From IMG/VR virus record IMGVR_UViG_3300029288_000065, positions 96,001 through 160,000 of that record: a DNA stretch of 64,000 nucleotides, one strand, 5' to 3'. The stretch comes from a virus (Duplodnaviria; Caudoviricetes). The notes under the pieces are model-generated. The model saw only the letters and a program-made list of their open reading frames with translations, was not told the DNA's origin and did not search any database. Position numbers and translations under genes: made by a program. Below, piece by piece: positions 2,703 through 61,681 of this stretch (position 1 is the first letter of the stretch; each line of letters starts with the position of its first letter).

Positions 2703-3752
2703 ATGGAACCAAATGAGATTGCCAATTACCTTGGTGATGATGACCATGTTGAGAATGTAATTCAGGAAGTCGTTGATATTCCAGATGACAAGCTTTTGAC
2801 AGAAGCTGGTTTGCTTGGCAGAATTTTTACTTCAGTACTTCGCGAAGTATTCCCAAACTTGGGGATAGATATTACAGATCCGACTATAAAGAGAGCATTG
2901 GCTGTTCATCCTGATATTGGAAATATTGCAAAATTTGCTCAACAATATCAAGCTTCATTGGTTGGTTTAATGCAAGCTACCAGGTCCTATATAAAGGACA
3001 AAGCTGTTACTGAGAAGGTCCACGATGTATTGAGGAATGCTGTTAAGGTTGGTGTTCCAATTATTAAGGAAGCGGCTGCGGCTGCTGCTGAGAAGTTTGC
3101 TCAGGAAATGCGTCATAAGGGTGAGGGAGATCTTGAACGAAAGACTGATAAAGTTGAAGGTGATATTTCCAAGACGGTGGAACCTCCAAAACCTGCACAA
3201 CCAAAACCACAAGATCTAACTGGTAGAGGTGACGAGTTAAGAGGTACACCAGGATTACAGATGGCTTCCTTTAACCGTATAGGTTACAAAACTATTCTGG
3301 AAGCCGAACAGCCAGTACCATCCTCAGGACCAGTCAACACGCCAAAAGCAATAGACAAACCACGTGCTGGTCCAGTCTTGAAGAGTAAAGAACTTCTTGC
3401 TGGAATCCCAAGTAACCAAAAGCCTTTGAATAAACCAATTTCAAAACCAGCAGCAATGCCCCCGAGAGTGGAGTGTGTTATTGATTTAAAGCAATTAACG
3501 GAGATGATTCAGGCGGCTGGGGCGTCGACGGGTACTGATGAGGGAATAAAGCCTCTGGATATTCCCCCGAGTAAGAAGAAATTCACTACGATCCTTTTTA
3601 AGGATAATGGTCGTCCGAAATATAAGGTTGCTGTGAAGAATGATGGTCAGAATATTCATGAACTTGAGAATATTGCAAAACGAATAATTAATGGAAATCC
3701 CCCTGAAGGATGGGTTAGTGGAGAAGATTACGCAATAATTAGACTTGGCTAG
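2703..3752 (+). CDS. hypothetical protein, possibly virion-internal (L/I-x-E motifs, Pro/Lys-rich linker)
   Basis: 349-aa ORF; LLTEAG, ILEAE. Confidence 0.55.
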   Translation: MEPNEIANYLGDDDHVENVIQEVVDIPDDKLLTEAGLLGRIFTSVLREVFPNLGIDITDPTIKRALAVHPDIGNIAKFAQQYQASLVGLMQATRSYIKDKAVTEKVHDVLRNAVKVGVPIIKEAAAAAAEKFAQEMRHKGEGDLERKTDKVEGDISKTVEPPKPAQPKPQDLTGRGDELRGTPGLQMASFNRIGYKTILEAEQPVPSSGPVNTPKAIDKPRAGPVLKSKELLAGIPSNQKPLNKPISKPAAMPPRVECVIDLKQLTEMIQAAGASTGTDEGIKPLDIPPSKKKFTTILFKDNGRPKYKVAVKNDGQNIHELENIAKRIINGNPPEGWVSGEDYAIIRLG

Positions 3753-3780
3753 GTATATAACAACAACTGGGGATTTTTCA

Positions 3781-4671
3781 ATGCACATACAAGAAGCATT
3801 TGGGATATTTGATAATGCAAGAACTTTCGCACTTAGTACCGGAAAGAAACCAACAATAATACTTAAACAAACAGAGCATTTTGGTGATACGTTGTATGCT
3901 ACCCCAATTTTAAGACATTATCGGTTAAAGTATCCAAATGGTTGTGTATTATTCGTAACAGGTGATAAATTTGCTGATGTTCATAAATATAATCCTCATA
4001 TTGACAAATTGTTTATAGTTCCAGTTAAATCTGATTGGCGAGCATCTTACGTTCATAAGTTGTTTTCTCTGGAAGGAATTGATTTTAAACTGGCACCAGC
4101 TGTAATTTTTGGTACATTTCTTCCATCGCATGTTTGGTCGCTTCCAAATATTTTCGATCAATATATCAAAAATGCTGGAATAGACGGAGAATTACTTGGT
4201 GGTAGGCAGACAGTTGCTGTTACAGATAAGGATGATGAGGATTGGGTTACTTGGTTTTTGACGAAGAATCAAGTCGATCCACGTAGAGCTATCGCTCTTG
4301 AATATCATAGTTATTCTCATAGTCATGGTTGGTCTCATCTCGAATTTCAAAGGTTTTGTGAATTGTGTGTGAATAAGGTCTACGTAATTTCACTTGCTGG
4401 TTCTCATGAGAATATCTATGCAAAGACAGTTGATGGTCGTGGTATGTCTTGGAGAAGATCGGCTGCGTTACTAAATAGAATTCGTGGGATAGTTGGGATG
4501 AGTTCTGGGATGTGTGTTCTTGCATCTTCTTGTCCAAGTAAGCCTTTCATCTTTGAATTGAATTGTCCAGATAGTATCTCGATTAGGAAAATGGGTTTCA
4601 GTGAAAATTGCCAATCTCTGGTCGGATACAATGCTGACCAAGTCATTAAACTTGTTTGCGAGAGACTATGA
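3781..4671 (+). CDS. glycosyltransferase family 9-like (heptosyltransferase-type)
   Basis: HFGDTLYATPILRHYRLKYP N-terminal motif, NPHID, GMSSGMCVLA. Confidence 0.75.
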   Translation: MHIQEAFGIFDNARTFALSTGKKPTIILKQTEHFGDTLYATPILRHYRLKYPNGCVLFVTGDKFADVHKYNPHIDKLFIVPVKSDWRASYVHKLFSLEGIDFKLAPAVIFGTFLPSHVWSLPNIFDQYIKNAGIDGELLGGRQTVAVTDKDDEDWVTWFLTKNQVDPRRAIALEYHSYSHSHGWSHLEFQRFCELCVNKVYVISLAGSHENIYAKTVDGRGMSWRRSAALLNRIRGIVGMSSGMCVLASSCPSKPFIFELNCPDSISIRKMGFSENCQSLVGYNADQVIKLVCERL

Positions 4672-26636: not shown

Positions 26637-26808
26637 TGGTGCTCCTGGAAGGGTTCGAACCTCCAACCTTCCAATGGGATGAAACCCACCATCTAGTGCT
26701 ACGGATCAGACCCATCACACGAGTCGTCCCTTTAGATGACAGGTCATCACCCACTGGTGCTCCACCGACCCCACTACTGCGATAGTGGAGATTTTGAGCT
26801 ACAGGAGC
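26637..26808 (-). ncRNA. 172-nt tRNA-like RNA with D-loop hairpin insertion and extended anticodon arm
   Basis: acceptor GCTCCTG/CAGGAGC + A-CCA, TAGCTC/GAGC D stem, GGAGG-TTCGAAC-CCTTC T arm, long internal helices. Confidence 0.8.
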
Positions 26809-26816
26809 AACTCTTT

Positions 26817-27242
26817 TTACTCATCATCGTATACAAGTCTCGGAGGCTTATTCTCCTTGAAATAAGCCCTAACATGTTCCTTTACAACTTCATTAAAACC
26901 ATACTTATTCATAATCTCCTCCAAATTCTCAGACGGCTCATCGCCACCCAAATATGCCTTTTCACCAACACAAATCAAAATATTATCAGCAAACACCTTA
27001 TGATTCCCTCTCACCACGTATGGGGTGGCGTAGAGAGGAGAATCATTACAACACCCACAAGAATGCCTCATTGAGACACCCTCAGCAATCGCGTAAACCT
27101 TCTTACTGGTGAAGTATTGCTTTCTCCACCTGTCAGTTTTTACCTCCATATCTGGAAATTCAATCATCAAGTTCTCGATCTCTGCTACTTCAAGTGCCTT
27201 GCTCTTCAGTTCTGCAAGGTGTTTGTCGATGGACTCTGACAT
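26817..27242 (-). CDS. hypothetical protein (HSCGCC motif)
   Basis: SD AAGGAG; 141 aa. Confidence 0.7.
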   Translation of the reverse strand: MSESIDKHLAELKSKALEVAEIENLMIEFPDMEVKTDRWRKQYFTSKKVYAIAEGVSMRHSCGCCNDSPLYATPYVVRGNHKVFADNILICVGEKAYLGGDEPSENLEEIMNKYGFNEVVKEHVRAYFKENKPPRLVYDDE

Positions 27243-27252
27243 GTGTCTCTCC

Positions 27253-27558
27253 TTAGAGAAGCTTTAGTTCTCGGAACCAACCACTATCAACTGACGGGGA
27301 AATTGCCAATGCTGTGTGTGCGTTAATGTCTGGTTCATGGAAAATTGCGTGCTTAATTTCCTTGAACTTTTTCTCCCACGAGAGTAAGTCTTCCTCATCC
27401 TTGACGCCCAGGAGGACCATCGTCTTGTGGTTATTGTTCCAATCCTGTACCTATGGATCAGTTAGGTACCTGGAGAGGAACTCCGCTACAGCATGGCAAG
27501 CCTGTACTGCACGCTGAGAGGGCGAAAGATCCTTACGCACTAGCACATACAACTTCAT
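27253..27558 (-). CDS. pth2: peptidyl-tRNA hydrolase 2-like protein with in-frame amber at codon 36
   Basis: MKLYVLVRKDLSPSQRAVQACHAVAEF..P*VQDW..KTMVLLGVKDEEDL..FHEPD..TALAISP..LKLL; SD AGGAG; absent from the ORF track. Confidence 0.85.
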
Positions 27559-27919
27559 CTCGGAGTCTCCTTTCTTCCTGTATTTCCTTGCCCAGTTCCA
27601 ACCACTTTCTCTCGTATTTCTCGTCTCTGAGTTTCTCCATCAGACCAAATAAACTTCTGTTTGCGTAGGCTATGAGGTATGGGTATTTGTCTGAAATGTG
27701 ACAGGCTCGTTTGTCGTTCTCATTGCGATGGATGTGTAGTGCAATTAACCATTTGGAAGCTTCACGTTTATATCCTACGTAGGTTTTCCAGTTTTTTGAT
27801 TTTGGGTTGATGTGTTCGCCGATTTTGGTTCTAGAGTCTTGTTTTAAATCGGTGATTGCTTTGGCGTTTTTCCGGATGTAGTGCTTAATTACTTCTTCGA
27901 CCGTCAAATTCGTCGTCAT
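27533..27919 (-). CDS. basic hypothetical protein, first gene after the leader hairpin
   Basis: SD AAGGAG 7 nt before ATG 27919. Confidence 0.7.
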   Translation of the reverse strand: MTTNLTVEEVIKHYIRKNAKAITDLKQDSRTKIGEHINPKSKNWKTYVGYKREASKWLIALHIHRNENDKRACHISDKYPYLIAYANRSLFGLMEKLRDEKYERKWLELGKEIQEERRLRDEVVCASA

Positions 27920-27926
27920 CTTAAGT

Positions 27927-27975
27927 CTCCTTAACGGGTTTTGACCGAGGGGGTTGGCCATTACCCGTTAAGGAG
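27927..27975 (-). promoter_or_regulatory. SD-sequestering hairpin (13-bp perfect stem)
   Basis: CTCCTTAACGGGT ... ACCCGTTAAGGAG; the 3' arm contains the AAGGAG SD of ATG 27919. Confidence 0.85.
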
Positions 27976-28006
27976 GGTGAAGATCGATGTTTGGTACCTA
28001 ACGCAT
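27968..28006 (-). promoter_or_regulatory. leader uORF M-R-(TAG)-V-P-N-I-D-L-H-P-P-TAA
   Basis: own SD AGGAG; amber at codon 3; last codons overlap the 5' arm of the hairpin. Confidence 0.75.
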
Positions 28007-28047
28007 AACTGTCTCCTAATCTATTTTTATCTACGATTGTCAGTTTG

Positions 28048-28443
28048 TCAATAATCAACGCCTCTCATTTTCAATGTACCAAAATATTTCTCCATCCTCA
28101 AAAATTTCTTCTTTCTATCACTACAAAGGAAGATTAGGCAATCTACAAAGTGTTTCCAGAACGTGTCAGGGTCGAAATTCGGGTCTGCTAGTTCTATTTC
28201 ATAGAACACATAGCTTGGGTAATTTACATTATATTCTTTACTATAAAATATTTTTATGTCGGTATCTGAGATTTCTATAGAAGTTGCTCCGAGGATTCCA
28301 GTATCATAGTCCAGGCAACGTGGTGATTCACTTTTTATTGCAACCCGTCTAAGATCTTGCCCTAAGATTGAATATATTTCTTTCCCTAAGCGCTGGATTG
28401 ATTTTTCTATGGTATGCATGATTTCCAAATGATCTTCGTTCAT
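28048..28443 (-). CDS. small protein, ELADP family
   Basis: IELADPNFDPD. Confidence 0.65.
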   Translation of the reverse strand: MNEDHLEIMHTIEKSIQRLGKEIYSILGQDLRRVAIKSESPRCLDYDTGILGATSIEISDTDIKIFYSKEYNVNYPSYVFYEIELADPNFDPDTFWKHFVDCLIFLCSDRKKKFLRMEKYFGTLKMRGVDY

Positions 28444-28862: not shown

Positions 28863-28938
28863 TGGCGCTTCCGGAGGGAATCGAACCCCCAACACACTGA
28901 TTTAGATTCAGCTGCTCTACCAATTGAGCTACGGAAGC
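28863..28938 (-). tRNA. amber suppressor tRNA (anticodon CUA)
   Basis: 76-nt cloverleaf GCTTCCG..TAGCTCAATTGGTAGAGC..GCTGA-ATCTAAA-TCAGT..GGGGGTTCGATTCCCTC..CGGAAGC-G-CCA. Confidence 0.92.
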
Positions 28939-49852: not shown

Positions 49853-52800
49853 TCAGACCATGTTATTGATGAAATACTCGAACAGGAGTTTTCTATCTTC
49901 CATTGTCATATTAACACATGCCAGACAATGATTCTTTGTTGTATTGTAAAGTTTCGCCATCCGAACCTCATCTCCCTCCTCCAAATATCTAACAACCCTA
50001 TTCTTGATAGGAGCACTGACGACACATTCAACGATCAACTTGGCCATTTCTCTTAGAGTTGGCTCTACATCTTCAAGATATAGGTTGTATATGTTCTGTT
50101 TGACTGTTTCGTCCTCTTTCTCCCAGGCGTTCAATGCTTCTTGTTCAATTTTGGCATGGAGGTGTTCTACTTCTTTCCTCTTTTCCTCATTTTCTTCGAA
50201 AGACTTATTTGGGTCAGGTTCAAATTCAAATCTCTTGTTTAGACGTTCTACTACATCATCAATATCCAGGAGTTGCCATCCCTTACTGGCGTCTGCTTCT
50301 TGTTCTTGCTGCCATTTGGCTTCCTTTTCTTCCTCTTCTTCCTGTTCTTGTGAGAGAGGTGTGAAACCGTATAATTTTCCTCTTCTGTCCTTTTCTTGTA
50401 GGAACATTGGCATATGGATTCTTGCCCATTCTGCCATGGCAGCAGGATCTTCACCGAATTTATACCGGAGGGCATATTGCCAGAATCTGTCCAAGTCCCA
50501 GTTAAAGAATACTCTAAATGTTGCGCGAGTACTTTCAACACCGGCATAAGGTTCGTTTTCTTGACGGTAAGAATCTGCAACGTCTCTGATCAATCCTATT
50601 GATTCATCCTCAGTCTCAGTTGCGAACAGCTTTTTCTCAGGCTCACTTTTCAGATCTATCACTTTACCAAGCAACTGAGTATTCCCACCAAATACCTTCT
50701 TCTTCCATTCATCTCTTGACATATAAGGATCACCCCATGAAGAAACAATAGCTGGATCATAAAGTAATACCAACTTTTTGAAGATTCTCTGTGCTCTGGC
50801 TGGACTAATTTCAAGTTGCATAGCCTTCCCGATGAAATTAATCTCTTTCTTCTTAATCATCTGAGCACGTGCGGCCAAGAAATCATCTCCAATTGGACCA
50901 CCATAAACCTTAGACTTCTGGTCAATATATTCCTTGTAAACTTTGGTCATATATTCATCGAATTTATCTCTAATAAAAGAACCTTCCTCGCCAGCAATAG
51001 AATCAGGTAAGCCGAATTTAATCCTATTGGCTTCAGCTCTGTAAAAATCATTCTTCCACAGGTTCTTATCGGCCTTTTGGTAGGTTCTGAGAACAGAATC
51101 ATTTATATCAAAATCGACATTATGGAGACCGAACCTATCCCCAACATTTACCTTTATACCCCTTGGGCCTGTGTAGGATACAGTACCAGTCTCTGGATCA
51201 AAATCTGTAACTTCAACTGTACCATTTGGAAGATCAACAGAAACATTCTCTCGGAAATTGACGTTTTGGTCAATCAGATCTTCTGAAGTGAATTTGTTGT
51301 GCGCTGGGACACTAGAAACATAACCAGTAATTACAGGATTCTTAAACTGTGAAACCAACTGTTCCTCAATAGCATTTCTAAGGCCTTCATGAGTGGTTAA
51401 TGTTTCTTGGTAAGTAGGATCGTTCTTGTCACTTGGTAATTCTATTCCCTTTATTGTCTTTCTTGGGATAGTAATATACATCTCATATTTCATATCTTTC
51501 TCACTCTCAATTTCTTTTTTGAAATAACGGGTGAACATTTCTACTTTTTTCTCAATGGGAACTTTTGCCATATTCTCTTGGAACTCTTCAAAATCAGTAA
51601 TACCATACTTGACAAAATCGTCCTTGTGCTGTTCCCAAGTCATCCTCTCATATTTCTCGATGTTGGACGTATTCCATCTAAATTTGGCACCTGCTACCCT
51701 ATCAACCGAGATGCCTGTTCCATTGGAAACCATAATATATGCTCTGTACATCCTGCCATTGACGTTTACTGCTTGTGGTTCTGGTAGATGTATTACCGTG
51801 AAACCTACGCCCTTCTTCATCAGTTCTGGTGGTGGTGGCTGATTCAGGACTACTTCACCTGTCTCAGGATTAAACAAGAAATCACCGTTGGTATCTCTCT
51901 TGACGTGGTAGGTTCCAGACCCAAGTTTGATAATGGTTGATTCATCTTTTAGGATCTTGCTAATTGTTGGAGTACTGGCACTTCTACCTCTTGCTTTGGA
52001 GAATGTAGCAGAGGTAATACTTGGGAGTTCAGGATTGGCGTCGTCAATTTTTCCATGGATCAGGTTTAGGTCGTCTATATCATATCCCTTCTTTAAATTC
52101 TTAAAGATAGTTGAGGTTACGTCATTGGCTAGTTGGACATAAGTTCTATCAGTAACATTTAATTCTTTGACATCACGGCTTACTTTCTCAAGTTCTCCTT
52201 GGATTAATTTGAACAGGCGTGGTCCATTGAATACTGAATTACCAGAGTGAATCATACCAGGAGGCATTTTCTGGTTTTTCTGAATATAACCATAGAGTTC
52301 TTTTTCGGAGAAGTCTTCCGCTGGTGTTTCAATAATCTGATCTACCATTTGGGATATTTCATCTCGTGCTGTGAAAAATTTCCCAGCAGCTTGACGCTTC
52401 GTTTTAGCTAATTTATACATATCCATTATGTCTTTTGGATTCTGTTTGGCGTCAAAGTCTTGCATGAACGCCATTAAATCTTTCTCCATCTGTGACATAA
52501 CCACCTTGAATTGTTGGATATAATCGTCACTTGTGCTTAGATCAAGAAATTCTCGTTTTGGAATATAGATCCAAAGTTCGTAATGTGCTGGAATTTTATT
52601 GCGTGGTGTAGAAGCTCGTTCAATTCTCTTGAATGGTTCCAGACCCTGTTCCTTCGAAGTTGGTGAAATCATATCTTCAGCATAGTATTGGTATATTTTC
52701 TCCAGAGTGTCCCGTAACATCTCATATTCAGCAATTTGTTCCTCGTTGAAACCTGAATTCTCAATGGAATAAAGTGATCTTCTTGAGCCATCAGATTCTT

Positions 52801-55213
52801 CACCCAGATCCATTAAAGTCCGTTCGTAGGAAGCTTTTCTAAATGCGTTTAATCTGTCAACGATATCTGTTAGATAAGAATCAAAAAATACTTCCTTTTC
52901 TGTCTCTTCCAATGGGAGAGATACTGGACGCTTCTTATTTCGCATGATTAGATTCTTCTGGTCATCGAACCACGACCCATATTTCTCAAACGCCGCAATA
53001 ATATAATCTTGGGTGGCTTTCCCAGAATCTGGGTCATTAAGCATCTCATCTAACGATGACGAAATCCTATCCAGGTATAATCTGACAAGCATTTTCTTCT
53101 TGGTTTCGCGGTCTTTTCTATACTCCTTACGAATTCTTCTATCATGATCTCTAACTTCTGGTGATTCCTTTATAGACTGGATCATATACATCCAGGATGG
53201 GTAAGATCTCCCACCACGAGTGAAAGGCTTAGATTTGTCAACTTTTTTCTGGATTGGAGGGGCAGCACCCTCAGCTTCACAAATTACTTGTTCCAAATGC
53301 TTAAAAATATCCTCTGCAACTGCTGGCATTTTGGATTTCTTTTGCTTTAATTCAGCTGGCAGTAGTTCCTCCAAAGATCGTCGTGATGTAAAAGGATCTT
53401 CCTTATCGCTATCTGTTTTCTTTATCTCAATCTTTAACTTTGGATTCCCAGAGATTACAGCCACCAAATTAAAAATCGTCCTACCCAAAGCAACTGTACC
53501 CAGTTCATACTTCGGCAATGTCCCCTCTTTCAATTTTCTGGTATCAACATTGGTATCAGCCAATTTCTCGACAACGGTCGCAGAGAGAGCAACAATGGGA
53601 TCTTTGGATGTCTTGTAAGAGTCAAAGTTCGCAGTTACAGATTCCTTGACATTATCCATCTGTTTCTTTTTGTGAGCTTGGAATTTCTCAAGAAGTCCTT
53701 TTATATAATTTAGATCATCGAGAGTGTCAATTTTCCCGATCTTTATCCGTTTAAGGAATTCTGGGTCTAAATTTTGTGACCCTATTTCTTTTACTGCTTC
53801 TCTGGTTGTATCGATAATATCTTCAAATCTTGCTGAACCACCAACTTTTCTATACTCATCCTGTAGAGTTTTTAGATCACCATTCTTTTTGGCTGTTGTT
53901 AATTTCTGGAGTAATGCTGTTTTCTCTTGTGAACCATACTCAACATATAATGTTTTTAGGCTTTCCAATGCCTTCATGTATTTTTCTTTTGTGTTTGGAT
54001 AAAGTTCCATTGCTCTCTTTGGGAGGTCTCCTATGCTCTTTAGGAGATCATTATATTCATCTTGGGTGATCATTTTTTGTTCGAGATTATACTTCAGTAG
54101 ATCGGAAGTATTCTTTTGGAGTCTCTTTAAAGCTGTCTGTAGGTCGCCTGATCTAACTTGGGACATTTCATTGAATAATTCCAATGTGAATTGGTCAGTT
54201 AATATATCTCTGAATTCGTCAAGTGTAATGTCACCAGCATCACTAAAGTCCAGTTTGATATTTTTTAGAATATCAACTTGTTCTCCTGAGAAGAGATCTG
54301 GTCTTGTTAATAATGCTGATAGCATTGTCATTGCATCGGCAGATCCAAGATTTTTCTCTTGGAGGAAATCTATTTGCCCATCTGATAATTTACTTCCACC
54401 AGAACCTATAAATGCTTTTCCACTTATCCTTATTGTGTTAAAACTAATCTGGTTTATGATTTGATTTATTCTCTGTACAGCTTCTGGATTTATTCCCTTG
54501 TCATTTCGTACATCGTTTATTCTATTTGTCAGAAATACTTCGTTGTCAATTTCATCTTGGGTTGTTGCCTGTTTCTTGGCTTTCATAATATTATCAATGA
54601 TGTTGTTTATAGTACATTTCCCTATTTTGTCATTAATATCATCATATTCACTCTTGACCTGATCAAAATCTTTCTTTGCTTTGATATATGATTGGTATGA
54701 TTTCTTACTGTGTTCTGTTGGTCTCGATACAAAGTCACTCCATGAGGAACCATACTCTTTTAAGAAGTACCTGATCTTCTCAATTGCTTTTTGTGTTTCG
54801 GCGTTTACTGCGTCACTGCCTTTCTTTTCATCAGTTGGTAGGATTGGATTATTTGGGAACCTGTCATTGTAGAGTTTCCAGAGTTCTGTTCCTGTGAATT
54901 CTGCGTGGGACCACTGGGTACTTTGGTCGCCACGTCGAAGTGCATCATATAATGCTGCTCCGAGGACTGCTTGCTGGATTTCTGGGTCCCAGTCTTTTCC
55001 AAGTTTTCTGGAGATTAGCTGAACTTGGCGTAGGATTTGTTTGCGTCGTCTGGCGTTCTGTAATCCTGTCTTTAGATTCTTGGTATCTTCGTCTCCTGTT
55101 TCTTCTGGTTCTATACTGGGGTCTACTCTTTTCCTTTGTTCTTCTTCTCCGGCTTCTGATAGTATACTGGGTCCATGGCTTGACAGCGGTAGAAACTTAT
55201 TCTTCACAGTCAT
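49853..55213 (-). CDS. giant (1786 aa) putative virion protein
   Basis: uninterrupted ORF, ILSEAG near the N-terminus, charged helical composition. Confidence 0.75.
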   Translation of the reverse strand: MTVKNKFLPLSSHGPSILSEAGEEEQRKRVDPSIEPEETGDEDTKNLKTGLQNARRRKQILRQVQLISRKLGKDWDPEIQQAVLGAALYDALRRGDQSTQWSHAEFTGTELWKLYNDRFPNNPILPTDEKKGSDAVNAETQKAIEKIRYFLKEYGSSWSDFVSRPTEHSKKSYQSYIKAKKDFDQVKSEYDDINDKIGKCTINNIIDNIMKAKKQATTQDEIDNEVFLTNRINDVRNDKGINPEAVQRINQIINQISFNTIRISGKAFIGSGGSKLSDGQIDFLQEKNLGSADAMTMLSALLTRPDLFSGEQVDILKNIKLDFSDAGDITLDEFRDILTDQFTLELFNEMSQVRSGDLQTALKRLQKNTSDLLKYNLEQKMITQDEYNDLLKSIGDLPKRAMELYPNTKEKYMKALESLKTLYVEYGSQEKTALLQKLTTAKKNGDLKTLQDEYRKVGGSARFEDIIDTTREAVKEIGSQNLDPEFLKRIKIGKIDTLDDLNYIKGLLEKFQAHKKKQMDNVKESVTANFDSYKTSKDPIVALSATVVEKLADTNVDTRKLKEGTLPKYELGTVALGRTIFNLVAVISGNPKLKIEIKKTDSDKEDPFTSRRSLEELLPAELKQKKSKMPAVAEDIFKHLEQVICEAEGAAPPIQKKVDKSKPFTRGGRSYPSWMYMIQSIKESPEVRDHDRRIRKEYRKDRETKKKMLVRLYLDRISSSLDEMLNDPDSGKATQDYIIAAFEKYGSWFDDQKNLIMRNKKRPVSLPLEETEKEVFFDSYLTDIVDRLNAFRKASYERTLMDLGEESDGSRRSLYSIENSGFNEEQIAEYEMLRDTLEKIYQYYAEDMISPTSKEQGLEPFKRIERASTPRNKIPAHYELWIYIPKREFLDLSTSDDYIQQFKVVMSQMEKDLMAFMQDFDAKQNPKDIMDMYKLAKTKRQAAGKFFTARDEISQMVDQIIETPAEDFSEKELYGYIQKNQKMPPGMIHSGNSVFNGPRLFKLIQGELEKVSRDVKELNVTDRTYVQLANDVTSTIFKNLKKGYDIDDLNLIHGKIDDANPELPSITSATFSKARGRSASTPTISKILKDESTIIKLGSGTYHVKRDTNGDFLFNPETGEVVLNQPPPPELMKKGVGFTVIHLPEPQAVNVNGRMYRAYIMVSNGTGISVDRVAGAKFRWNTSNIEKYERMTWEQHKDDFVKYGITDFEEFQENMAKVPIEKKVEMFTRYFKKEIESEKDMKYEMYITIPRKTIKGIELPSDKNDPTYQETLTTHEGLRNAIEEQLVSQFKNPVITGYVSSVPAHNKFTSEDLIDQNVNFRENVSVDLPNGTVEVTDFDPETGTVSYTGPRGIKVNVGDRFGLHNVDFDINDSVLRTYQKADKNLWKNDFYRAEANRIKFGLPDSIAGEEGSFIRDKFDEYMTKVYKEYIDQKSKVYGGPIGDDFLAARAQMIKKKEINFIGKAMQLEISPARAQRIFKKLVLLYDPAIVSSWGDPYMSRDEWKKKVFGGNTQLLGKVIDLKSEPEKKLFATETEDESIGLIRDVADSYRQENEPYAGVESTRATFRVFFNWDLDRFWQYALRYKFGEDPAAMAEWARIHMPMFLQEKDRRGKLYGFTPLSQEQEEEEEKEAKWQQEQEADASKGWQLLDIDDVVERLNKRFEFEPDPNKSFEENEEKRKEVEHLHAKIEQEALNAWEKEDETVKQNIYNLYLEDVEPTLREMAKLIVECVVSAPIKNRVVRYLEEGDEVRMAKLYNTTKNHCLACVNMTMEDRKLLFEYFINNMV

Positions 55214-55258
55214 ATGAATTCTCCGTTCTGTCTCTATATATTTTTGAATATAATTGTT

Positions 55259-58200
55259 TTAGATCTCTTCGAAATCACCACTTGGTCCAGGTTTCAGACC
55301 CAGTTGTCGTAATTTCTCTTGCCTCTTCAACTCTTGCTCACGAGATGCAGACTTTCCTGTAGGAATTGTAACCTTGGCACCAGGACGAGCCTCAATGCCA
55401 TAGTACCCATGTGGAGGTGCAGGAGATGGAGTAATAACCTCTTCTTCCTCACCCTCCTCACCCTTTTCAGGATGATATTTCGCAGGGCCAACATACCTCT
55501 GTAATACCTTCTTAACATTCGGATCTGTCTCCTTCTGATAGAGATCCCAAATCTTATCAAAAGATGTATTCTTCCACTTTCCACCACCAACCATCAAGCT
55601 CTTCAGAGCTGTCAACATAGTCTCATCCGGGCCAGCATCCAAAATTCTTGAGATTGTACTATCGACCATTTCCTGATTTGGTTCTTTTAGACGGTCAATA
55701 AGTGACACTGCAGTATTTTCAGAGATTCTACCACCACTATCAGCTGCGAAATGTGCTGAAGTAAGATTCTTGGAAATATATCCAGCTTCATCCCTCAATG
55801 CCAATAGGAAATCCTCTTCATTATCATAAGTATTTATATTCTCGTCCCCAACCCTATGAGCTTGGAATTTTACTTCCAAATCATCAGCCAAAGGACCAAT
55901 ATTGGCATTTGACAATTCATTTGCAATTGCAACCAAATCCTCATCGCTCATTTCTGATAGAGCTTTTATCTGCTTTTTGGAATTCTTTAATGATAGAAGA
56001 ATTGCTCTCTCATCGTCTTTATCTGGGAAAGTAACACCATACTTCTTACTATAATACTTGACATATCTAACATCCTTTGAGATATCAAGCTGAATATCAG
56101 CAATATCAGATGAAGAATAATATTTTCCAGTCTTTGAATCATAAAAATTCCTGGAATTCTTCAACTGTTCCAGTAACTTTTCTTGATCTGCCAAATCTCT
56201 TGTCAATTTGGCCTCTTCTGGACCTGGTTCAGCATTTCTCAATTTTGTCCTAATGGTAGAAATTGTACCATTAACTTTCTTGATTCTTTCTGTGTCAATA
56301 GCTGGACCAACTTTCCTCTTTTCTGGAGTAGTTGATACTTCTCGGAGTTTTAATCTCTTGGCTATCTCCTGTGCCTGACTAGCAATATTGGCTTTATATT
56401 CTTCTGTGTCTACCTTGGCCAGTCTTCCTGTTATTTCACCTGCGAACATCATAATGGCATTGGAAATCTGTTGTGGGTCAATAGCTTCACCAGTTTTTGC
56501 TGATTGTCTCTTTATAGCTGCTACCTTTTGACGTGTAGCGTAAAGTTCCAAGTCTGTGTCCAGGGAAGCCATTAGATTTTGGTGTACTAGTCGTCGTACA
56601 TCTTCTGGATTCTGTTGTGGGTCCATCCCTTCTGGGAGAGAGATAGCGAAGTTACTCTCTTTATCTTGCCAAGAGTTTGAAGCTTTCCTGCGTAGTAGTT
56701 CTCTTCTAACATCATCAGTCAATTTTATAAGGATTGGATCGTTTGGATTTTTTGGATCTGGTTCTCTTGGTTGTACGCTTTCAAGTCTATCTATAATCTC
56801 ATCGAATAATTTCATTGGATCATCTCCTTTTCGGAGGGATCCAATCATTTTCAACATGGTATCAACTTCTGTGTCAGTAAACTTTCTTACGCCTTGATCG
56901 TCTTGGACGCCACGGAGGGCATTTTTCATGATTTTTGGATCTGTTATTTGTTCGGTGTCAAATCGTTCTTTTATGTTCCTTGCGTGTTCGACCAGTTCGT
57001 CAAAGTCTGGACGAATTAGTTCTCTGAAGTATTCATCATCTGGGTCGAATGTTGGTGATGCCTCAAATGACATACCAGTCTCTGGATCTCTCCAGAGATT
57101 CTTGTTCGCTGGCATCTTGAAGCCAGTTACAGGATCATGCCACTCATACTTGAATACCTTTTTGGTACCAAGGAGATCTCTAAAGAAACCAACTTTGGCC
57201 TGATCGTCATGAAGTCCAAATTTTAACATCAATAGATTTCTCTCACGGTCTGTGAGAGATGGAATTTTCATTATCATGTCAACGGTATCATGAATTTGGG
57301 CTATTGTGTCTGGCGTTGGTACGCTTAGGGATTTCTGTGTATCTATTAATTGTTCTCTCTTATCGCCGGCTCCTTGTATTTCTTGGTCAAGTGATAGAGT
57401 TGTTGACAATGGGATTGGACGTACGAAAACAAATTTGTTCAAGTACCTCTTCATGTTCCAATCACTACTTAAGTCCAACAGAGCAACATTCTTGGCACTG
57501 TTGAGGGTTTGACTTCGACCTTCCTCATCCTTTACCTTGTCAGCATAACCATTAAGTACCTGTCTAATGGTTTTATTAACCTGGCGTATCTTATCTCTGA
57601 ACTCCTGAGAAGAAGATCTCCCCTCGGATCTCTCATAATCATTTCGGATAACATAAGGCTTCCCGCCACGACCAGCAACTCGAATAGGACCAAATCCTTC
57701 CGTAAAATGCTTCCCATTGAGTACATCTTCCACAGTCTTTGGTATATCCTTATCAGGAATCTTACCAGTCTCTTTAAGACGTATGCCATCATGAGAGTAA
57801 AGTTTTCCATCTTGTGGGTTTAGGAATGTGTAAATCCACATTACGTAAGCTTGTACTGGGGCACTTACAATCAAGACATCCCAAGTTCCACCGGCTGGGT
57901 GAGCTGTAATTCGTCTTGATGGACCAGCCATAAACCGGTTGGACAATTCTTTATTAATAGTGAATAATACATACCTGACAAAACCGGGATTGGACCTCTC
58001 CATCCTTCTTCCTTCCGGTCCTTCCCTGAGTTCGTTTACCTTCTCTTCAACCTTCTTGGTAGTGAAGTTCTTATTGGACACCAATTTCTTGGCAACTTCC
58101 ATTGGAGTTACATCTTTCCACCATGTTGGTCGACCATTTTCCAGAATATCATCCGTCCAATATAACGATCCTTCTATGAATTCCAATCCGTCATATACCT

Positions 58201-61200
58201 TCTTAGCTTGATCTGTAACATACTTTTCATCTTCTGGCGCTGTTCCTCTCAGAGAAGCTCTGATTACTCTTGTAATTTCATCCAAAGACGGTTTTTGATT
58301 TTCACCCTCACCTTTAAAGTATGAAGGTTTTCCATTCCCCTTTTGATACACCCACACATTTTGCTGTGGGTGGAATTCTGCTGTTTCAGCTACTTCAAGT
58401 GCCTCTTCAGGAGTTAATTTTACTGATCTCATAACTATATCACGGAGTTGGTCTTTATCAGGCTTCGTTGGATCTTGTGGATCATTATCCAAATCGGTGT
58501 AATACCGGTCTGATTGTGGGTCGAACCAAGTATTTCTGCGTTTATCATTCTCAAGTGCTTTGAAGACCAGTTTTCTAGCTTCTTCACGTACATCGTCAAG
58601 TTCTTGCTGTTTCTTATAGAGTTGGAACTTGTAATATATTCTGTCCGCTGCTGCGTCAACCAATCCACCAATTGTGTCGAAGATCTGTTCGACTGTCCAA
58701 CCAGTACCTTGGAGTTTTTGATCCAACCATCTTTGGTAGGAATCATCATCTGAGAATGCTCTGGCAGAGAAAGGATCTGAGGGATCCAATTTCTGTTTGT
58801 AATCGTTTGGATTTACTACATCGGAAGACTGCATTATATCAGTAATTCTGTCTAAGGTACGGAGTGAACGTGGGTTTTCATAATTTGAGATTACAAGTTT
58901 GCGCCCGCTTCTCGTCTCATATTCCACTTGTTCTCTTCCATGTGATACTTCCATGGTCTGGCTTGGGTCTTGTGGATTTCTGGTACGAGGTCTATATCCC
59001 AATTGTGCGCCAAAGAGAGAAAGTGCGAGTTCAGCATCTCTCAGTGTCTGGAATGCGAAAAGTTTTTCTGGAGCTGTATCGTCATTCTCGATACTTCCAT
59101 CTTCAGCACGCTTAAGACCTATAGGAGCTTCAAAGTCAATCTTTCCGTTTTCATCAGAGAGGTAGATGCCCCAAAGGTAATCACCTGGTGTATTCCAAAT
59201 TTTCCTACCACCAACACCTCTCTTGGGTATAAATGGACTCTTTCCACCAGACTTCTTAACAACTACTTTTAGTAAGAGTGCTATTGGGTCTATGGTTTCT
59301 TCTGTTTCCATTGCATCTACTTCAAGTCTGTTATCAATATCACCAAATTTGGCCCTGGCATAATTCATAGCGTTTTCTTCAGCTGTCTTATTTCCATTTC
59401 TGGATGGGCCAGTAAAAACTTCCCGTTCTCTTTCTTGACCATCAAGATCTGTATATTTTACAATATACTTCCTGAATGGAATTACATTACCTTCTTGATC
59501 GGAATAAGTTTCTTGAATATTCCTAACAGATTCAGGATCGAAGCCTATCTTTGTGATTTCTCCACTACCAGGAGGGAATTCAACCGAGATTGGTCTACTA
59601 AAGAGACTATTATAAATCCTTTGCTTAACCTCATCGGTCAGTCTATTCCCGTAAAGGTTCAACAGGAATGATGCTTCGTTTTCTGCCTCATCACCAGATG
59701 AAGTTCTGGAGATCTTTATGTCATTCCTTCTAACTACAGCAAGGTCTAATGGTTCTCCGTAGTACAATCCTTTGATTGTAGCAAGTTGTTCATCGTTATT
59801 CACCCATTGGAATTCTTCAACTGAGATGGGGGTATGTTTCTCTGCTAGTTTTCCACCCTCTTCAACTTCTGTTCTAAACTGTGTACATGCTGCTATGATC
59901 TTGGGTTTTGCAGCTTTAAAGTCTGCAAAATAGATTCTGTTCTTGATTGCATTATAATTCTCATATAAGCTTTCTTTTTCTTGAGTATTCATTGGTTGAA
60001 TACCAAGGATGTCTCTGCGGACTTTGGATACCCATGGTCTTAGGTTTTCTGGTAGTTTGGATTCGACTTCTTCATCCGATGAAGGTGGTGCGTAGACTAT
60101 TTTTGGTTTTTTCTGGAATTTTATTTCATATGCGATTAGTCGTTCTGTGGTCTGTTCGTCTATTTCTTCATCCGACACTGATAATCCTTGATCGCGGCGG
60201 TAAAGCAATTCGTCCATCGCTTGTTCTTTAATAATCTTGACAGTCCATTCTGCGTCTTCTTCGTCATACTCTCCAGATTCCATTATCCTGGCACGTTCCT
60301 CTGGTTCCACTCTGAAGTATAATTCTTTGATGGAGTCAAGGGCATTTCTGGCGAACATTGTTGCCAGATGCTTTTTGGTTTCGTCCTGGAGGTCCCCTTC
60401 AATAATATTATAGACAGGTTGCTGAAGTCCAGGGGGTGGTACTTTTGATGCTGCTATCTGGAGTGTATCTGTGGGTGAGAGAGCTTCCAGATCTTGTGCT
60501 TCAGCCTTCTTCAGTTTTTCCAATGACAAAGTTAGAGCTTTTTGAGCATTTTCTATGCCTGAACCGGTCTGCTTGGCATTATTTAGGGTTTCCCTTTTTT
60601 CTATTACGTCTTGTTGTGCTCTGTCTACGTAGATTGCTACTAGGCCAGTTAGATTATGTTTCTTGAGGGCATTCTTTATGTCTGCGACGTATGTTGCTAT
60701 TTCTTGGGTCGTTGGTGTTTCGAGGTGTGTTGCTTGTTCTGCTGCTGATGCCCATTCGGATACTTTGGTCTTTATGTGGTTGGCTATGCTTTGGAGTACT
60801 GGTACTTGTTTTTCGTCAGTTGGGTCCATTCTTCGTACGATACCATCTATGGTTAGTCTGCCGTTACTCCATTCGGCATCTTTATCGCGTCTTAGGAATC
60901 TATCTGCCCATCGTCCTGCTGGTACCCAGGCACCGGTAGTACTTATGTCTTTTCTGGTGGCTGCTTTTTCTGTCTTTGCTTGTGGGATTACTCTATATCC
61001 CATCATGACTTTTAGGATATTGTCTGAGATTGTGGAGACCATTCTGTTTATTGGTGGTGTGAAATCTCTATTGTTGGTTGTTAGGTATGTGTTGATTGCT
61101 GGCAACATTCTTTGTAGTCTGGTGTACATCTGTTCTTTGTTGGCAGTTATTTCTGTTTCTTCTTCGGTTTCTGCCATCCCTGCCAATTCTGGGTGTTCTT

Positions 61201-61681
61201 CCTCTTCTCCTTCTGGGGTTTCTTCTTCTTTGTTGATTTCTGTTTCTTGGATTTTCTCCATTCCGATTGTAATTGCGGTTTGGAGTCCTTCGATAAATCC
61301 TACTGGATCTCCCCATCCCAGTCTTTGGAGTGTTTCTACGTCAAGTGTTTTTACGTCGCTTGATGGTAATCCCCGATTATCTTCGTCTTCTTCATCTATT
61401 GGGCTGTATATTTCTTCTGTGATCATATGGGGGTGTTTTTCTTTGATGTATTCATATACTATTCGTGCTTCTTGTTTAATTTCGTTGATTATTCCTTTGG
61501 GTCTGGCGCAACCGATGTGGACCAGTCCGATGCTTCTGAAGATGTGTCCCAGGTCTATTACTGATTCGCAGAGGGTACAAAAGTCTCTTTGGTATGCTAT
61601 TTCTTCCAGTACGCTGATTGGTAGACAGGAGTAATACTTTGGTTTGATTATCCAATTCTTCTTCCCTAATACAGTTGACAT
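55259..61681 (-). CDS. giant (2140 aa) protein containing sigma70-like regions
   Basis: LSLDQEI..LID..P..LTDRERNLLMLKFGL; SD GGAGG. Confidence 0.7.
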   Translation of the reverse strand: MSTVLGKKNWIIKPKYYSCLPISVLEEIAYQRDFCTLCESVIDLGHIFRSIGLVHIGCARPKGIINEIKQEARIVYEYIKEKHPHMITEEIYSPIDEEDEDNRGLPSSDVKTLDVETLQRLGWGDPVGFIEGLQTAITIGMEKIQETEINKEEETPEGEEEEHPELAGMAETEEETEITANKEQMYTRLQRMLPAINTYLTTNNRDFTPPINRMVSTISDNILKVMMGYRVIPQAKTEKAATRKDISTTGAWVPAGRWADRFLRRDKDAEWSNGRLTIDGIVRRMDPTDEKQVPVLQSIANHIKTKVSEWASAAEQATHLETPTTQEIATYVADIKNALKKHNLTGLVAIYVDRAQQDVIEKRETLNNAKQTGSGIENAQKALTLSLEKLKKAEAQDLEALSPTDTLQIAASKVPPPGLQQPVYNIIEGDLQDETKKHLATMFARNALDSIKELYFRVEPEERARIMESGEYDEEDAEWTVKIIKEQAMDELLYRRDQGLSVSDEEIDEQTTERLIAYEIKFQKKPKIVYAPPSSDEEVESKLPENLRPWVSKVRRDILGIQPMNTQEKESLYENYNAIKNRIYFADFKAAKPKIIAACTQFRTEVEEGGKLAEKHTPISVEEFQWVNNDEQLATIKGLYYGEPLDLAVVRRNDIKISRTSSGDEAENEASFLLNLYGNRLTDEVKQRIYNSLFSRPISVEFPPGSGEITKIGFDPESVRNIQETYSDQEGNVIPFRKYIVKYTDLDGQEREREVFTGPSRNGNKTAEENAMNYARAKFGDIDNRLEVDAMETEETIDPIALLLKVVVKKSGGKSPFIPKRGVGGRKIWNTPGDYLWGIYLSDENGKIDFEAPIGLKRAEDGSIENDDTAPEKLFAFQTLRDAELALSLFGAQLGYRPRTRNPQDPSQTMEVSHGREQVEYETRSGRKLVISNYENPRSLRTLDRITDIMQSSDVVNPNDYKQKLDPSDPFSARAFSDDDSYQRWLDQKLQGTGWTVEQIFDTIGGLVDAAADRIYYKFQLYKKQQELDDVREEARKLVFKALENDKRRNTWFDPQSDRYYTDLDNDPQDPTKPDKDQLRDIVMRSVKLTPEEALEVAETAEFHPQQNVWVYQKGNGKPSYFKGEGENQKPSLDEITRVIRASLRGTAPEDEKYVTDQAKKVYDGLEFIEGSLYWTDDILENGRPTWWKDVTPMEVAKKLVSNKNFTTKKVEEKVNELREGPEGRRMERSNPGFVRYVLFTINKELSNRFMAGPSRRITAHPAGGTWDVLIVSAPVQAYVMWIYTFLNPQDGKLYSHDGIRLKETGKIPDKDIPKTVEDVLNGKHFTEGFGPIRVAGRGGKPYVIRNDYERSEGRSSSQEFRDKIRQVNKTIRQVLNGYADKVKDEEGRSQTLNSAKNVALLDLSSDWNMKRYLNKFVFVRPIPLSTTLSLDQEIQGAGDKREQLIDTQKSLSVPTPDTIAQIHDTVDMIMKIPSLTDRERNLLMLKFGLHDDQAKVGFFRDLLGTKKVFKYEWHDPVTGFKMPANKNLWRDPETGMSFEASPTFDPDDEYFRELIRPDFDELVEHARNIKERFDTEQITDPKIMKNALRGVQDDQGVRKFTDTEVDTMLKMIGSLRKGDDPMKLFDEIIDRLESVQPREPDPKNPNDPILIKLTDDVRRELLRRKASNSWQDKESNFAISLPEGMDPQQNPEDVRRLVHQNLMASLDTDLELYATRQKVAAIKRQSAKTGEAIDPQQISNAIMMFAGEITGRLAKVDTEEYKANIASQAQEIAKRLKLREVSTTPEKRKVGPAIDTERIKKVNGTISTIRTKLRNAEPGPEEAKLTRDLADQEKLLEQLKNSRNFYDSKTGKYYSSSDIADIQLDISKDVRYVKYYSKKYGVTFPDKDDERAILLSLKNSKKQIKALSEMSDEDLVAIANELSNANIGPLADDLEVKFQAHRVGDENINTYDNEEDFLLALRDEAGYISKNLTSAHFAADSGGRISENTAVSLIDRLKEPNQEMVDSTISRILDAGPDETMLTALKSLMVGGGKWKNTSFDKIWDLYQKETDPNVKKVLQRYVGPAKYHPEKGEEGEEEEVITPSPAPPHGYYGIEARPGAKVTIPTGKSASREQELKRQEKLRQLGLKPGPSGDFEEI

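What the first reader, a model, noticed from the sequence alone, without database searches (positions are those of the whole stretch)
27253..27558. Hidden Pth2-like gene with an in-frame amber after Asp-Pro, inside a 7-bp hairpin
Seen: a 102-codon frame with SD and Pth2-like motifs on both sides of TAG (27453-27451), with no other lesion. The amber follows Asp-Pro and lies in the 3' arm of GTACCTA-n9-TAGGTAC (27469-27447). Established: Asp-Pro/Glu-Pro before a stop gives inefficient release and so favours read-through; Pth2 recycles dropped-off peptidyl-tRNA. Inference: programmed read-through makes the enzyme only when termination at UAG is compromised.
Basis: partly seen in the sequence, partly recalled or inferred. 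Interest (0 to 1): 0.85.

Follow-up and report, generated by a model that had tools for sequence, protein, structure and literature searches.

The report
Suppressor-tRNA-gated phage Pth2-like operon
A jumbo phage that uses the normal genetic code carries its own tRNA that reads the stop codon UAG and a small operon locked twice by UAG stops, so those genes are probably made only when that tRNA overrides the stop; I found no published description of this switch, and it gives puzzling phage 'suppressor' tRNAs a target.

Summary
In this 234-kb standard-code phage (TAG ends 57 of 314 ORFs) the read-through frame is Pth2-like (Pfam, predicted fold). The codon-36 TAG recurs in relatives at 52-91% identity, with dN/dS 0.02-0.05 behind it. 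Among 145 distinct relatives, 42 have an internal stop, always TAG. The gene belongs to a larger module: a CUA tRNA 1.3 kb upstream (within 2.5 kb in 78 of 95 long loci), an amber-gated Pro-Pro-stop leader over a Shine-Dalgarno-hiding stem, and a conserved unknown gene X. Where the tRNA reads UAA (Lak phages, one other) or UGA, the gate codon changes with it, so the module's own tRNA most likely decodes the gates (about 0.85). The 7-bp hairpin is not conserved; Asp-Pro is partly a fold feature. Best mechanism (about 0.5, inferred): prfB-like negative feedback in which X and the Pth2-like protein curb the charged suppressor. Hydrolase activity, inserted residue and trigger are untested. This scan already noted the module on other DNA (107 findings, at least 73 genomes); I found no paper describing it.

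The parts
28863..28938 (-). tRNA with CUA anticodon (amber reader); canonical 76-nt cloverleaf, encoded CCA, G1-C72, C2-G71, U3-A70, G73, unusual A32
   Evidence: ARAGORN, Rfam RF00005 67 bits, fold; lies apart from the genome's main tRNA cluster
28023..28051 (-). sigma-70-like promoter match (10 of 12) just before the leader; weak
   Evidence: the number of matches in the region equals chance
27968..28006 (-). leader ORF: Met-Arg-amber (28000-27998), nine more codons ending His-Pro-Pro, TAA; SD AGGAG 28017-28013
   Evidence: same design in 17 of 21 family-B and 28 of 52 family-A loci; 55 of 127 loci by strict pattern against 1 of 114 downstream controls
27927..27975 (-). 13-bp stem: 5' arm (27975-27963) overlaps the leader's Pro-Pro-stop, 3' arm (27939-27927) holds the SD of gene X
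   Evidence: fold z -3.2; same stem with different sequence in four relatives; three pairs with changes on both sides, 9 of 500 shuffles, only five sequences; masking the leader end lowers SD pairing from 0.68 to 0.41 over 33 loci
27533..27919 (-). gene X, 128 aa, basic all-helical protein of unknown function; its stop overlaps the start of the Pth2-like gene by 26 nt
   Evidence: family B in 23 loci, a second family A in 53 loci at the same place; confident model without a clear fold match; start at 27919 from SD and relative L066
27253..27558 (-). Pth2-like gene, 101 residues with in-frame TAG at codon 36 (27453-27451)
27447..27469 (-). 7-bp inverted repeat around the amber; probably incidental
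26637..26808 (-). 172-nt oversized tRNA-like RNA (acceptor, D and T arms, CCA; extra D-loop hairpin; long helix instead of an anticodon loop); possible fifth part, uncertain
   Evidence: fold z -4.2; similar oversized elements 7 within 1 kb of the gene against 2 further away, Fisher p 0.015, not independent; absent in close relative L010

Best explanation
The gene is one part of a self-gated operon in a standard-code jumbo phage. The phage's own CUA tRNA, charged by a host synthetase, competes with RF1 at two ambers. (1) At codon 3 of a leader: a ribosome that reads through reaches Pro-Pro-stop, pauses, and opens the stem that hides the ribosome-binding site of gene X. (2) At codon 36 of the Pth2-like gene, whose start is coupled to the end of X. 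Full-length Pth2-like protein therefore needs two read-through events. Shown by sequence comparison: the anatomy, conservation, selection and gate-anticodon matching. Inferred (about 0.85): the module's tRNA decodes the gates. Inferred (about 0.5 overall): the products feed back negatively, the Pth2-like protein hydrolysing the ester on the aminoacyl- or peptidyl-form of the suppressor tRNA (X as RNA-binding helper), holding read-through of the phage's many ordinary TAG stops low, as RF2 does at the UGA of prfB.
For: Internal stops in the family are TAG in 42 of 42 cases, 39 of them in the variable loop at codons 32-37; about 20 further members have TAG within the first few codons and no start after it, against 1 TAA; 58 of 145 are gated inside the gene. 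The label needs 21 changes on a quick, poorly resolved tree, at least 5 forced, so gates arose or were lost repeatedly. CUA tRNA within 2.5 kb in 78 of 95 long loci; next anticodon 7 of 95. Gate matches anticodon: all 46 leaders beside a CUA tRNA are TAG-gated; UUA loci L186 and Lak-B1, A1, C1 have TAA-gated leaders; UCA loci L042 and L173 show TGA gates. For the negative sign: TAG ends 57 of 314 ORFs with no shortened extension behind it and no other split gene; no client was found for the CUA tRNAs of XacN1 (PMC5852040) or the UAA tRNA of 51 of 51 Lak genomes (PMC8346664); the fold is Pth2 (TM 0.83-0.86) and Glu75 and Thr82, which lie behind the amber and were not in the search patterns, are kept in 143 of 145; prfB precedent (PMC5009743).
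Against: Nothing is experimental: expression, charging, inserted residue and enzyme activity are unknown. The Lys of the Pth2 Gly-Lys-Gly-Lys motif is replaced and the Asp aligns with Glu, and NCBIfam Pth2 cut-offs are far from met, so the protein may not hydrolyse anything. The tRNA bodies show no single synthetase identity. Low read-through could come from a poorly charged tRNA with no feedback. Loci with an internal gate do not use more TAG stops than others (0.16 against 0.17; that split ignored early and leader gates). A pure self-limiting loop does not say what the phage gains. The UAA and UGA cases are few, and the L173 and L115 cases are ambiguous. About a third of loci show no gate by my patterns (85 of 127 do).
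Confidence: 0.5

Rival explanations
1. Termination-stress sensor with rescue output (closest to the first reader). The tRNA wins only when release factors are depleted, trapped or inhibited; X and the Pth2-like protein then free ribosomes or tRNAs stuck at stop codons, possibly with the tRNA as peptide acceptor that is then hydrolysed (a tRNA-based back-up release).
For: Gate contexts are those that slow release; no release-factor gene in the 89% complete genome; in Lak, where TAG is sense, the module reads the real stop UAA.
Against: A general back-up should favour UUA, which reads the commonest stop, yet CUA dominates. The three gate types involve different release factors. No known trigger was identified. 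To make the protein the tRNA must elongate normally.
Confidence: 0.2
2. Positive loop or timer. The tRNA's appearance or maturation during infection switches the operon on, and X and the Pth2-like protein either help the tRNA (recycling its dropped-off peptidyl form, or loading it) or do an unrelated job such as counter-defence or host takeover.
For: Gates within the first few codons would generate short peptidyl-tRNA drop-off (own knowledge; PMC10192219 listed, not read); two gates in series give a switch-like response; here the tRNA is 850 nt and two unrelated genes away from the leader, and in L001 and L002 it is on the other strand, so it can be expressed separately.
Against: A self-amplifying suppressor should select against TAG stops or for tandem stops, which the genome does not show; host Pth already recycles peptidyl-tRNA.
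Confidence: 0.22
3. Genome-wide or regional TAG recoding (code 15) or pyrrolysine insertion, with the amber in this gene a trivial by-product.
For: A CUA tRNA is present and ARAGORN labels it Pyl by anticodon; Lak phages, which are recoded, carry the gene.
Against: Opening TAG adds no more coding than opening TGA in the window or in most amber-bearing loci; ORFs of 1786 and 2140 codons are open under code 11; the tRNA has ordinary D- and T-loop motifs; no PylS or Glu/Gln synthetase gene; exactly one TAG at a non-conserved loop position.
Confidence: 0.03
4. Pseudogene, sequencing error, or a split gene with re-initiation at Met47.
For: Gene callers do call a 55-aa ORF from Met47.
Against: TAG conserved across saturated synonymous divergence and in an independent study; no SD-like sequence before Met47 in relatives; residues 37-46 between the amber and Met47 are conserved.
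Confidence: 0.03

Closest known systems
prfB (RF2) autoregulation by an in-frame UGA (PMC5009743)
   Same: An early in-frame stop in a gene for a translation factor makes synthesis depend on failure to terminate; weak termination context.
   Different: Bypass is by a dedicated stop-reading tRNA, not +1 frameshifting; a second gate sits in a leader; the product is Pth2-like; the feedback sign is not shown here.
Arrest-peptide translational attenuators (SecM, RAPP/RGPP and Pro-stop uORFs; PMC10987492)
   Same: A short leader ending in Pro-Pro or Gly-Pro near a stop overlaps a stem that hides the next gene's SD.
   Different: The arrest motif is reachable only after stop-codon read-through; no secretion signal; stalling not tested.
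Stop-codon-recoded phages with suppressor tRNAs (code 15; Lak, crAss-like; bioRxiv 10.1101/2021.08.26.457843, PMC8346664)
   Same: Phage-encoded tRNA with a stop anticodon; in-frame stops as proposed expression control.
   Different: The genome keeps TAG as a stop; the only visible clients are the module's own genes; in Lak it is the unexplained UAA tRNA, not the recoding CUA tRNA, that lies beside the module.
Archaeal/eukaryotic Pth2 (PF01981; PDB 2zv3, 1wn2, 1xty, 1q7s) and phage families phrog_1866, phrog_3668
   Same: Fold, the Arg-x-Asp-Leu and Gln-x-x-His-Ala motifs, Trp40, Thr82.
   Different: Gly-Lys-Gly-Lys loop shortened with its Lys replaced, Asp replaced by Glu-Pro-Asp; below NCBIfam cut-offs; activity unknown. 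The motif pattern recalls human PTRHD1 (from memory, not tested).

Membership tests
Pth2 (PF01981) | Profile match above the gathering score | tested here: met
   44.5 bits against 23
Pth2 (PF01981) | Pth2 alpha/beta fold | tested here: met
   model pLDDT 96.6; Foldseek E 5e-8, TM 0.83-0.86 to 2zv3, 1wn2, 1xty
Pth2 (true orthologue, NF003314 / TIGR00283) | Equivalog score cut-off | tested here: not met
   27.8 against 126 and 26.4 against 82 bits
Pth2 (true orthologue, NF003314 / TIGR00283) | Active-site Lys, Asp, Thr (assignment from memory of P. horikoshii Pth2) | tested here: inconclusive
   Lys aligns with Gln/Arg, Asp with near-invariant Glu75, a Thr is kept at 82; no paper with the assignment was retrieved
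Pth2 (true orthologue, NF003314 / TIGR00283) | Hydrolysis of peptidyl-tRNA | not testable with these tools
   needs an assay
Code-15 (TAG=Gln) recoded phage | TAG is sense in many genes; coding density jumps when TAG is opened | tested here: not met
   Lak-B1 as positive control jumps from 0.39 to 0.79
Code-15 (TAG=Gln) recoded phage | Suppressor tRNA with a Gln-type body (U1-A72, G2-C71, G3-C70, G73) | tested here: not met
   G1-C72 in 85% and C2-G71 in 67% of 106 CUA tRNAs, unlike the Gln tRNAs in the same loci
Pyrrolysine system | pylS gene and tRNA-Pyl body | tested here: not met
   no TIGR02367 match in the 89% complete genome; ordinary GG and T-psi-C motifs, 5-bp anticodon stem; the host was not examined
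prfB-type autoregulation | Conserved early in-frame stop in the regulated gene | tested here: met
prfB-type autoregulation | +1 frameshift at a slippery site with internal SD | tested here: not met
   the frame continues unchanged after the TAG
prfB-type autoregulation | The product lowers bypass of the stop | not testable with these tools
   inferred only
Arrest-peptide attenuator | Leader end overlaps a stem that hides the downstream SD | tested here: met
Arrest-peptide attenuator | Ribosome stalling at the leader end induces the downstream gene | not testable with these tools
   needs toeprinting and reporters

The most novel reading that the evidence does not exclude
A dedicated stop-anticodon tRNA, protein X and the Pth2-like enzyme form an undescribed machine acting at stop codons as stops: either a tRNA-guided back-up for release factors or an RNA toxin with a self-induced protein antidote. 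It would be switched on by its own read-through and re-tuned to whichever codon is still a stop, and would be a ready source of the suppressor tRNAs from which phage recoding evolves.
Probability: 0.2. Interest if true: 0.92.

Novelty: new variant of a known kind. Interest (0 to 1): 0.72.

Why it matters
Suppressor tRNAs in phages that show no recoding are a stated puzzle: no target was found in XacN1 (PMC5852040), and all 51 Lak genomes carry an unexplained UAA-reading tRNA (PMC8346664). This module supplies conserved targets whose stop codon matches the anticodon. It would be a natural circuit that measures stop-codon read-through with its own tRNA. It is directly testable in cultured phages whose genes are mis-annotated because of the gate: GAP32 (TAG at codon 4, CUA tRNA 2.8 kb away), ME3 (TAG at codon 3, CUA tRNA 0.5 kb upstream), Bxz1 (ATG-TAG before the annotated start). 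A protein that limits a suppressor tRNA would also be useful for genetic-code expansion, and could hint at what Pth2-like proteins with altered active sites do.

Tried and rejected
Hairpin around the amber as a stimulator: not conserved. Gln or Pyl as the required residue: un-gated close relatives have Ala or Arg there, and the Gln in P0005 is a gene caller's TAG reading. Other in-frame TAG clients in the genome: none convincing; in-frame neighbours after TAG mostly have their own TAGGAG-type SD and are no commoner than after TAA (small genes could be missed). More TAG stops near internally gated genes: no difference. Gene X: no Pfam or PHROG family for family A or PHROG family for the window's protein, no usable Atlas hit, no fold match above background, families A and B not detectably related. 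Predicted complex of X with the Pth2-like protein (un-gated pair from L064): no answer, not used as evidence. Sequencing runs: no RNA holder listed. Homologues of the 172-nt element by sequence: none. Ten literature searches found no description of the module; the library lacks most subscription papers. The careful tree did not finish; the quick tree has few supported forks. Aeh1, XacN1 and RAS14 homologues have no stop-reading tRNA nearby and no gate that I could see, so not all distant family members belong to the module. The host is unknown.

Full report
Observation. The 102-codon minus-strand frame 27558-27253 is as described: SD, ATG, one TAG at codon 36 after Asp-Pro, a 7-bp inverted repeat, TAA. 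Read through, it matches Pfam PTH2 above the cut-off, with the two halves matching consecutive parts of the profile. The model is confident and matches solved Pth2 structures at TM 0.83-0.86. The amber falls at the start of helix 2.

Source and code. The window lies in a 233,959-bp virus record, 89% complete, found in landfill and groundwater metagenomes. It uses the standard code: TAG ends 57 of 314 called ORFs, extensions behind TAG are no shorter than behind other stops, and no other gene looks split by TAG. No release factor, PylS or Glu/Gln synthetase gene was found. A canonical tRNA with a CUA anticodon lies 1.3 kb upstream on the same strand, far from the genome's tRNA cluster.

The amber is conserved. 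It stands at the same codon in relatives at 52-91% identity and in an independent study's contig. Synonymous sites are near saturation while dN/dS behind the TAG is 0.02-0.05. Among 145 relatives distinct at 90% identity, 42 have a stop inside the aligned domain, and it is TAG every time; 39 lie in the variable loop at codons 32-37. Prompted by earlier notes of this scan I looked upstream and found about 20 more with TAG among the first few codons and no start codon after it, against one TAA; a few have both. A quick tree needs 21 changes of the internal gate, at least 5 forced by supported branches.

The tRNA travels with the gene. A CUA tRNA lies within 2.5 kb in 78 of 95 loci with long flanks, often within 50 nt; the next commonest anticodon occurs in 7. 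The tRNA bodies vary widely (discriminator A, G or U; mostly G1-C72 and C2-G71) and are not Gln-like, so the inserted residue cannot be predicted. The position tolerates Ala, Arg or gaps in un-gated relatives.

A second gate. A note on this same window pointed to a leader, which I checked. At 28006-27968 an SD-led ORF reads Met-Arg-amber and, if read through, ends His-Pro-Pro-TAA. Its end overlaps the 5' arm of a 13-bp stem whose 3' arm holds the SD of gene X (ATG 27919). The stem is kept with different sequence in close relatives. The design (Met, one to five codons, TAG, a few codons, Pro-Pro or Gly-Pro, stop) occurs 70-130 nt before gene X in 17 of 21 family-B and 28 of 52 family-A loci; a strict pattern finds it in 55 of 127 loci against 1 of 114 downstream controls. 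Asp-Pro-, Gly-Pro- and Pro-Pro-stop are the most avoided C-terminal pairs in bacteria, and Asp-Pro and Pro-Pro stall termination (bioRxiv 10.1101/751305). Gene X is a basic helical protein with no identified family or fold; its stop overlaps the Pth2-like start.

Gate and anticodon change together. All 46 leaders found beside a CUA tRNA are TAG-gated. L186 and Lak-B1, A1 and C1 carry a UUA tRNA and have TAA-gated leaders with the same kind of ending; L186's relative L191 has CUA and TAG at the matching places. L042 has a UCA tRNA and a TGA-gated leader; L173 has a UCA tRNA and a TGA after the first in-frame Met, though a second Met follows it. The non-amber cases are few, but this is the best evidence that the module's own tRNA decodes the gates. 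It also bears on the unexplained UAA tRNA of all 51 Lak genomes (PMC8346664): where TAG is sense, the module uses a codon that is still a stop.

The hairpin is not conserved: 7 of 39 relatives pair the TAG upstream, equal to controls, although three close relatives keep some pairing. The residue before the internal amber is Pro, Thr or Gly in 35 of 42 cases and the next base a purine in 38 of 42, against 7 and 23 of 39 at ordinary TAG stops of this genome; this fits weak release, but the relatives are not independent and the Pro is also present in M. jannaschii Pth2.

Mechanism. Shown: anatomy, conservation, selection, gate-anticodon matching. Inferred with about 0.85: X and the full-length Pth2-like protein are made only when the module tRNA out-competes release factor, twice in series here. 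The purpose is less sure. I favour negative feedback (0.5): the genome is not adapted to strong suppression, the tRNA has no visible client outside the module, the fold acts on tRNA esters, near-invariant Glu75 and Thr82 lie behind the gate, and prfB gives the logic (PMC5009743). Rivals are a termination-stress sensor with rescue output (0.2) and a positive loop or timer (0.22). The altered active site leaves hydrolase activity open.

Novelty. Each part has precedent (suppressor tRNAs, arrest-peptide attenuators as in PMC10987492, prfB), so I file it as a new variant of stop-codon-sensing autoregulation; it fails membership of recoded phages, of the Pyl system and of true Pth2 orthologues. Ten searches found no paper on the combination. 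This scan has reported the same module on other DNA many times (107 findings, at least 73 genomes; leader and anticodon matching); those notes are not independent evidence, and the counts above are my own. Cultured phages GAP32, ME3 and Bxz1 carry gated versions, so the claim can be tested now.

Noticed in passing
window 26637-26808 (-): 172-nt tRNA-like RNA with intact acceptor, D and T arms and CCA, an extra D-loop hairpin and a long helix in place of the anticodon loop; it contains the same seven bases as the CUA tRNA's anticodon loop, paired internally. Similar oversized elements lie just downstream of the gene in L159, L175, L116, L130, L106, L207 and, L187, L190, L014.
   Followed up: partly
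window 26817-27242 (-): 141-aa ORF with a Cys-Gly-Cys-Cys motif directly after the Pth2-like gene, SD overlapping its TAA; kept there in L010, L012, L066, L067 and found upstream of the gene in L158; no family match.
   Followed up: partly
genome G000, several genes (e.g. genome 104508-105248, 162732-163439, 164987-166027, 177878-180052): Many TAG stops form part of a TAGGAG ribosome-binding site with the next gene in frame, so suppression would fuse neighbours; not more frequent than for TAA.
   Followed up: partly
window 49853-61681 (-): Two very long ORFs (2140 and 1786 codons) are in the same frame, separated by one TAA and 15 codons; no PHROG match for the parts tested.
   Followed up: no
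genome G000 3555-3836: tRNA-Leu(UAA) with a 195-nt intron in the anticodon loop.
   Followed up: no
L212 1781-2112 (GAP32), L216, L213, L204: Public annotations of cultured phages start the Pth2-like gene downstream of the amber gate (GAP32_397 loses its first strand), so the gene is mis-called.
   Followed up: partly
L205 3461-4300 (XacN1), L211 2015-2800 (RAS14): The Pth2-like domain is the C-terminal part of a 260-280-aa protein, without a nearby stop-reading tRNA.
   Followed up: no
L201, L202: The gene with a CUA tRNA also occurs in bacterial genome bins (Bacteroidota, Planctomycetota; the latter on a 2-Mb contig), both with a TAG just before the core.
   Followed up: partly
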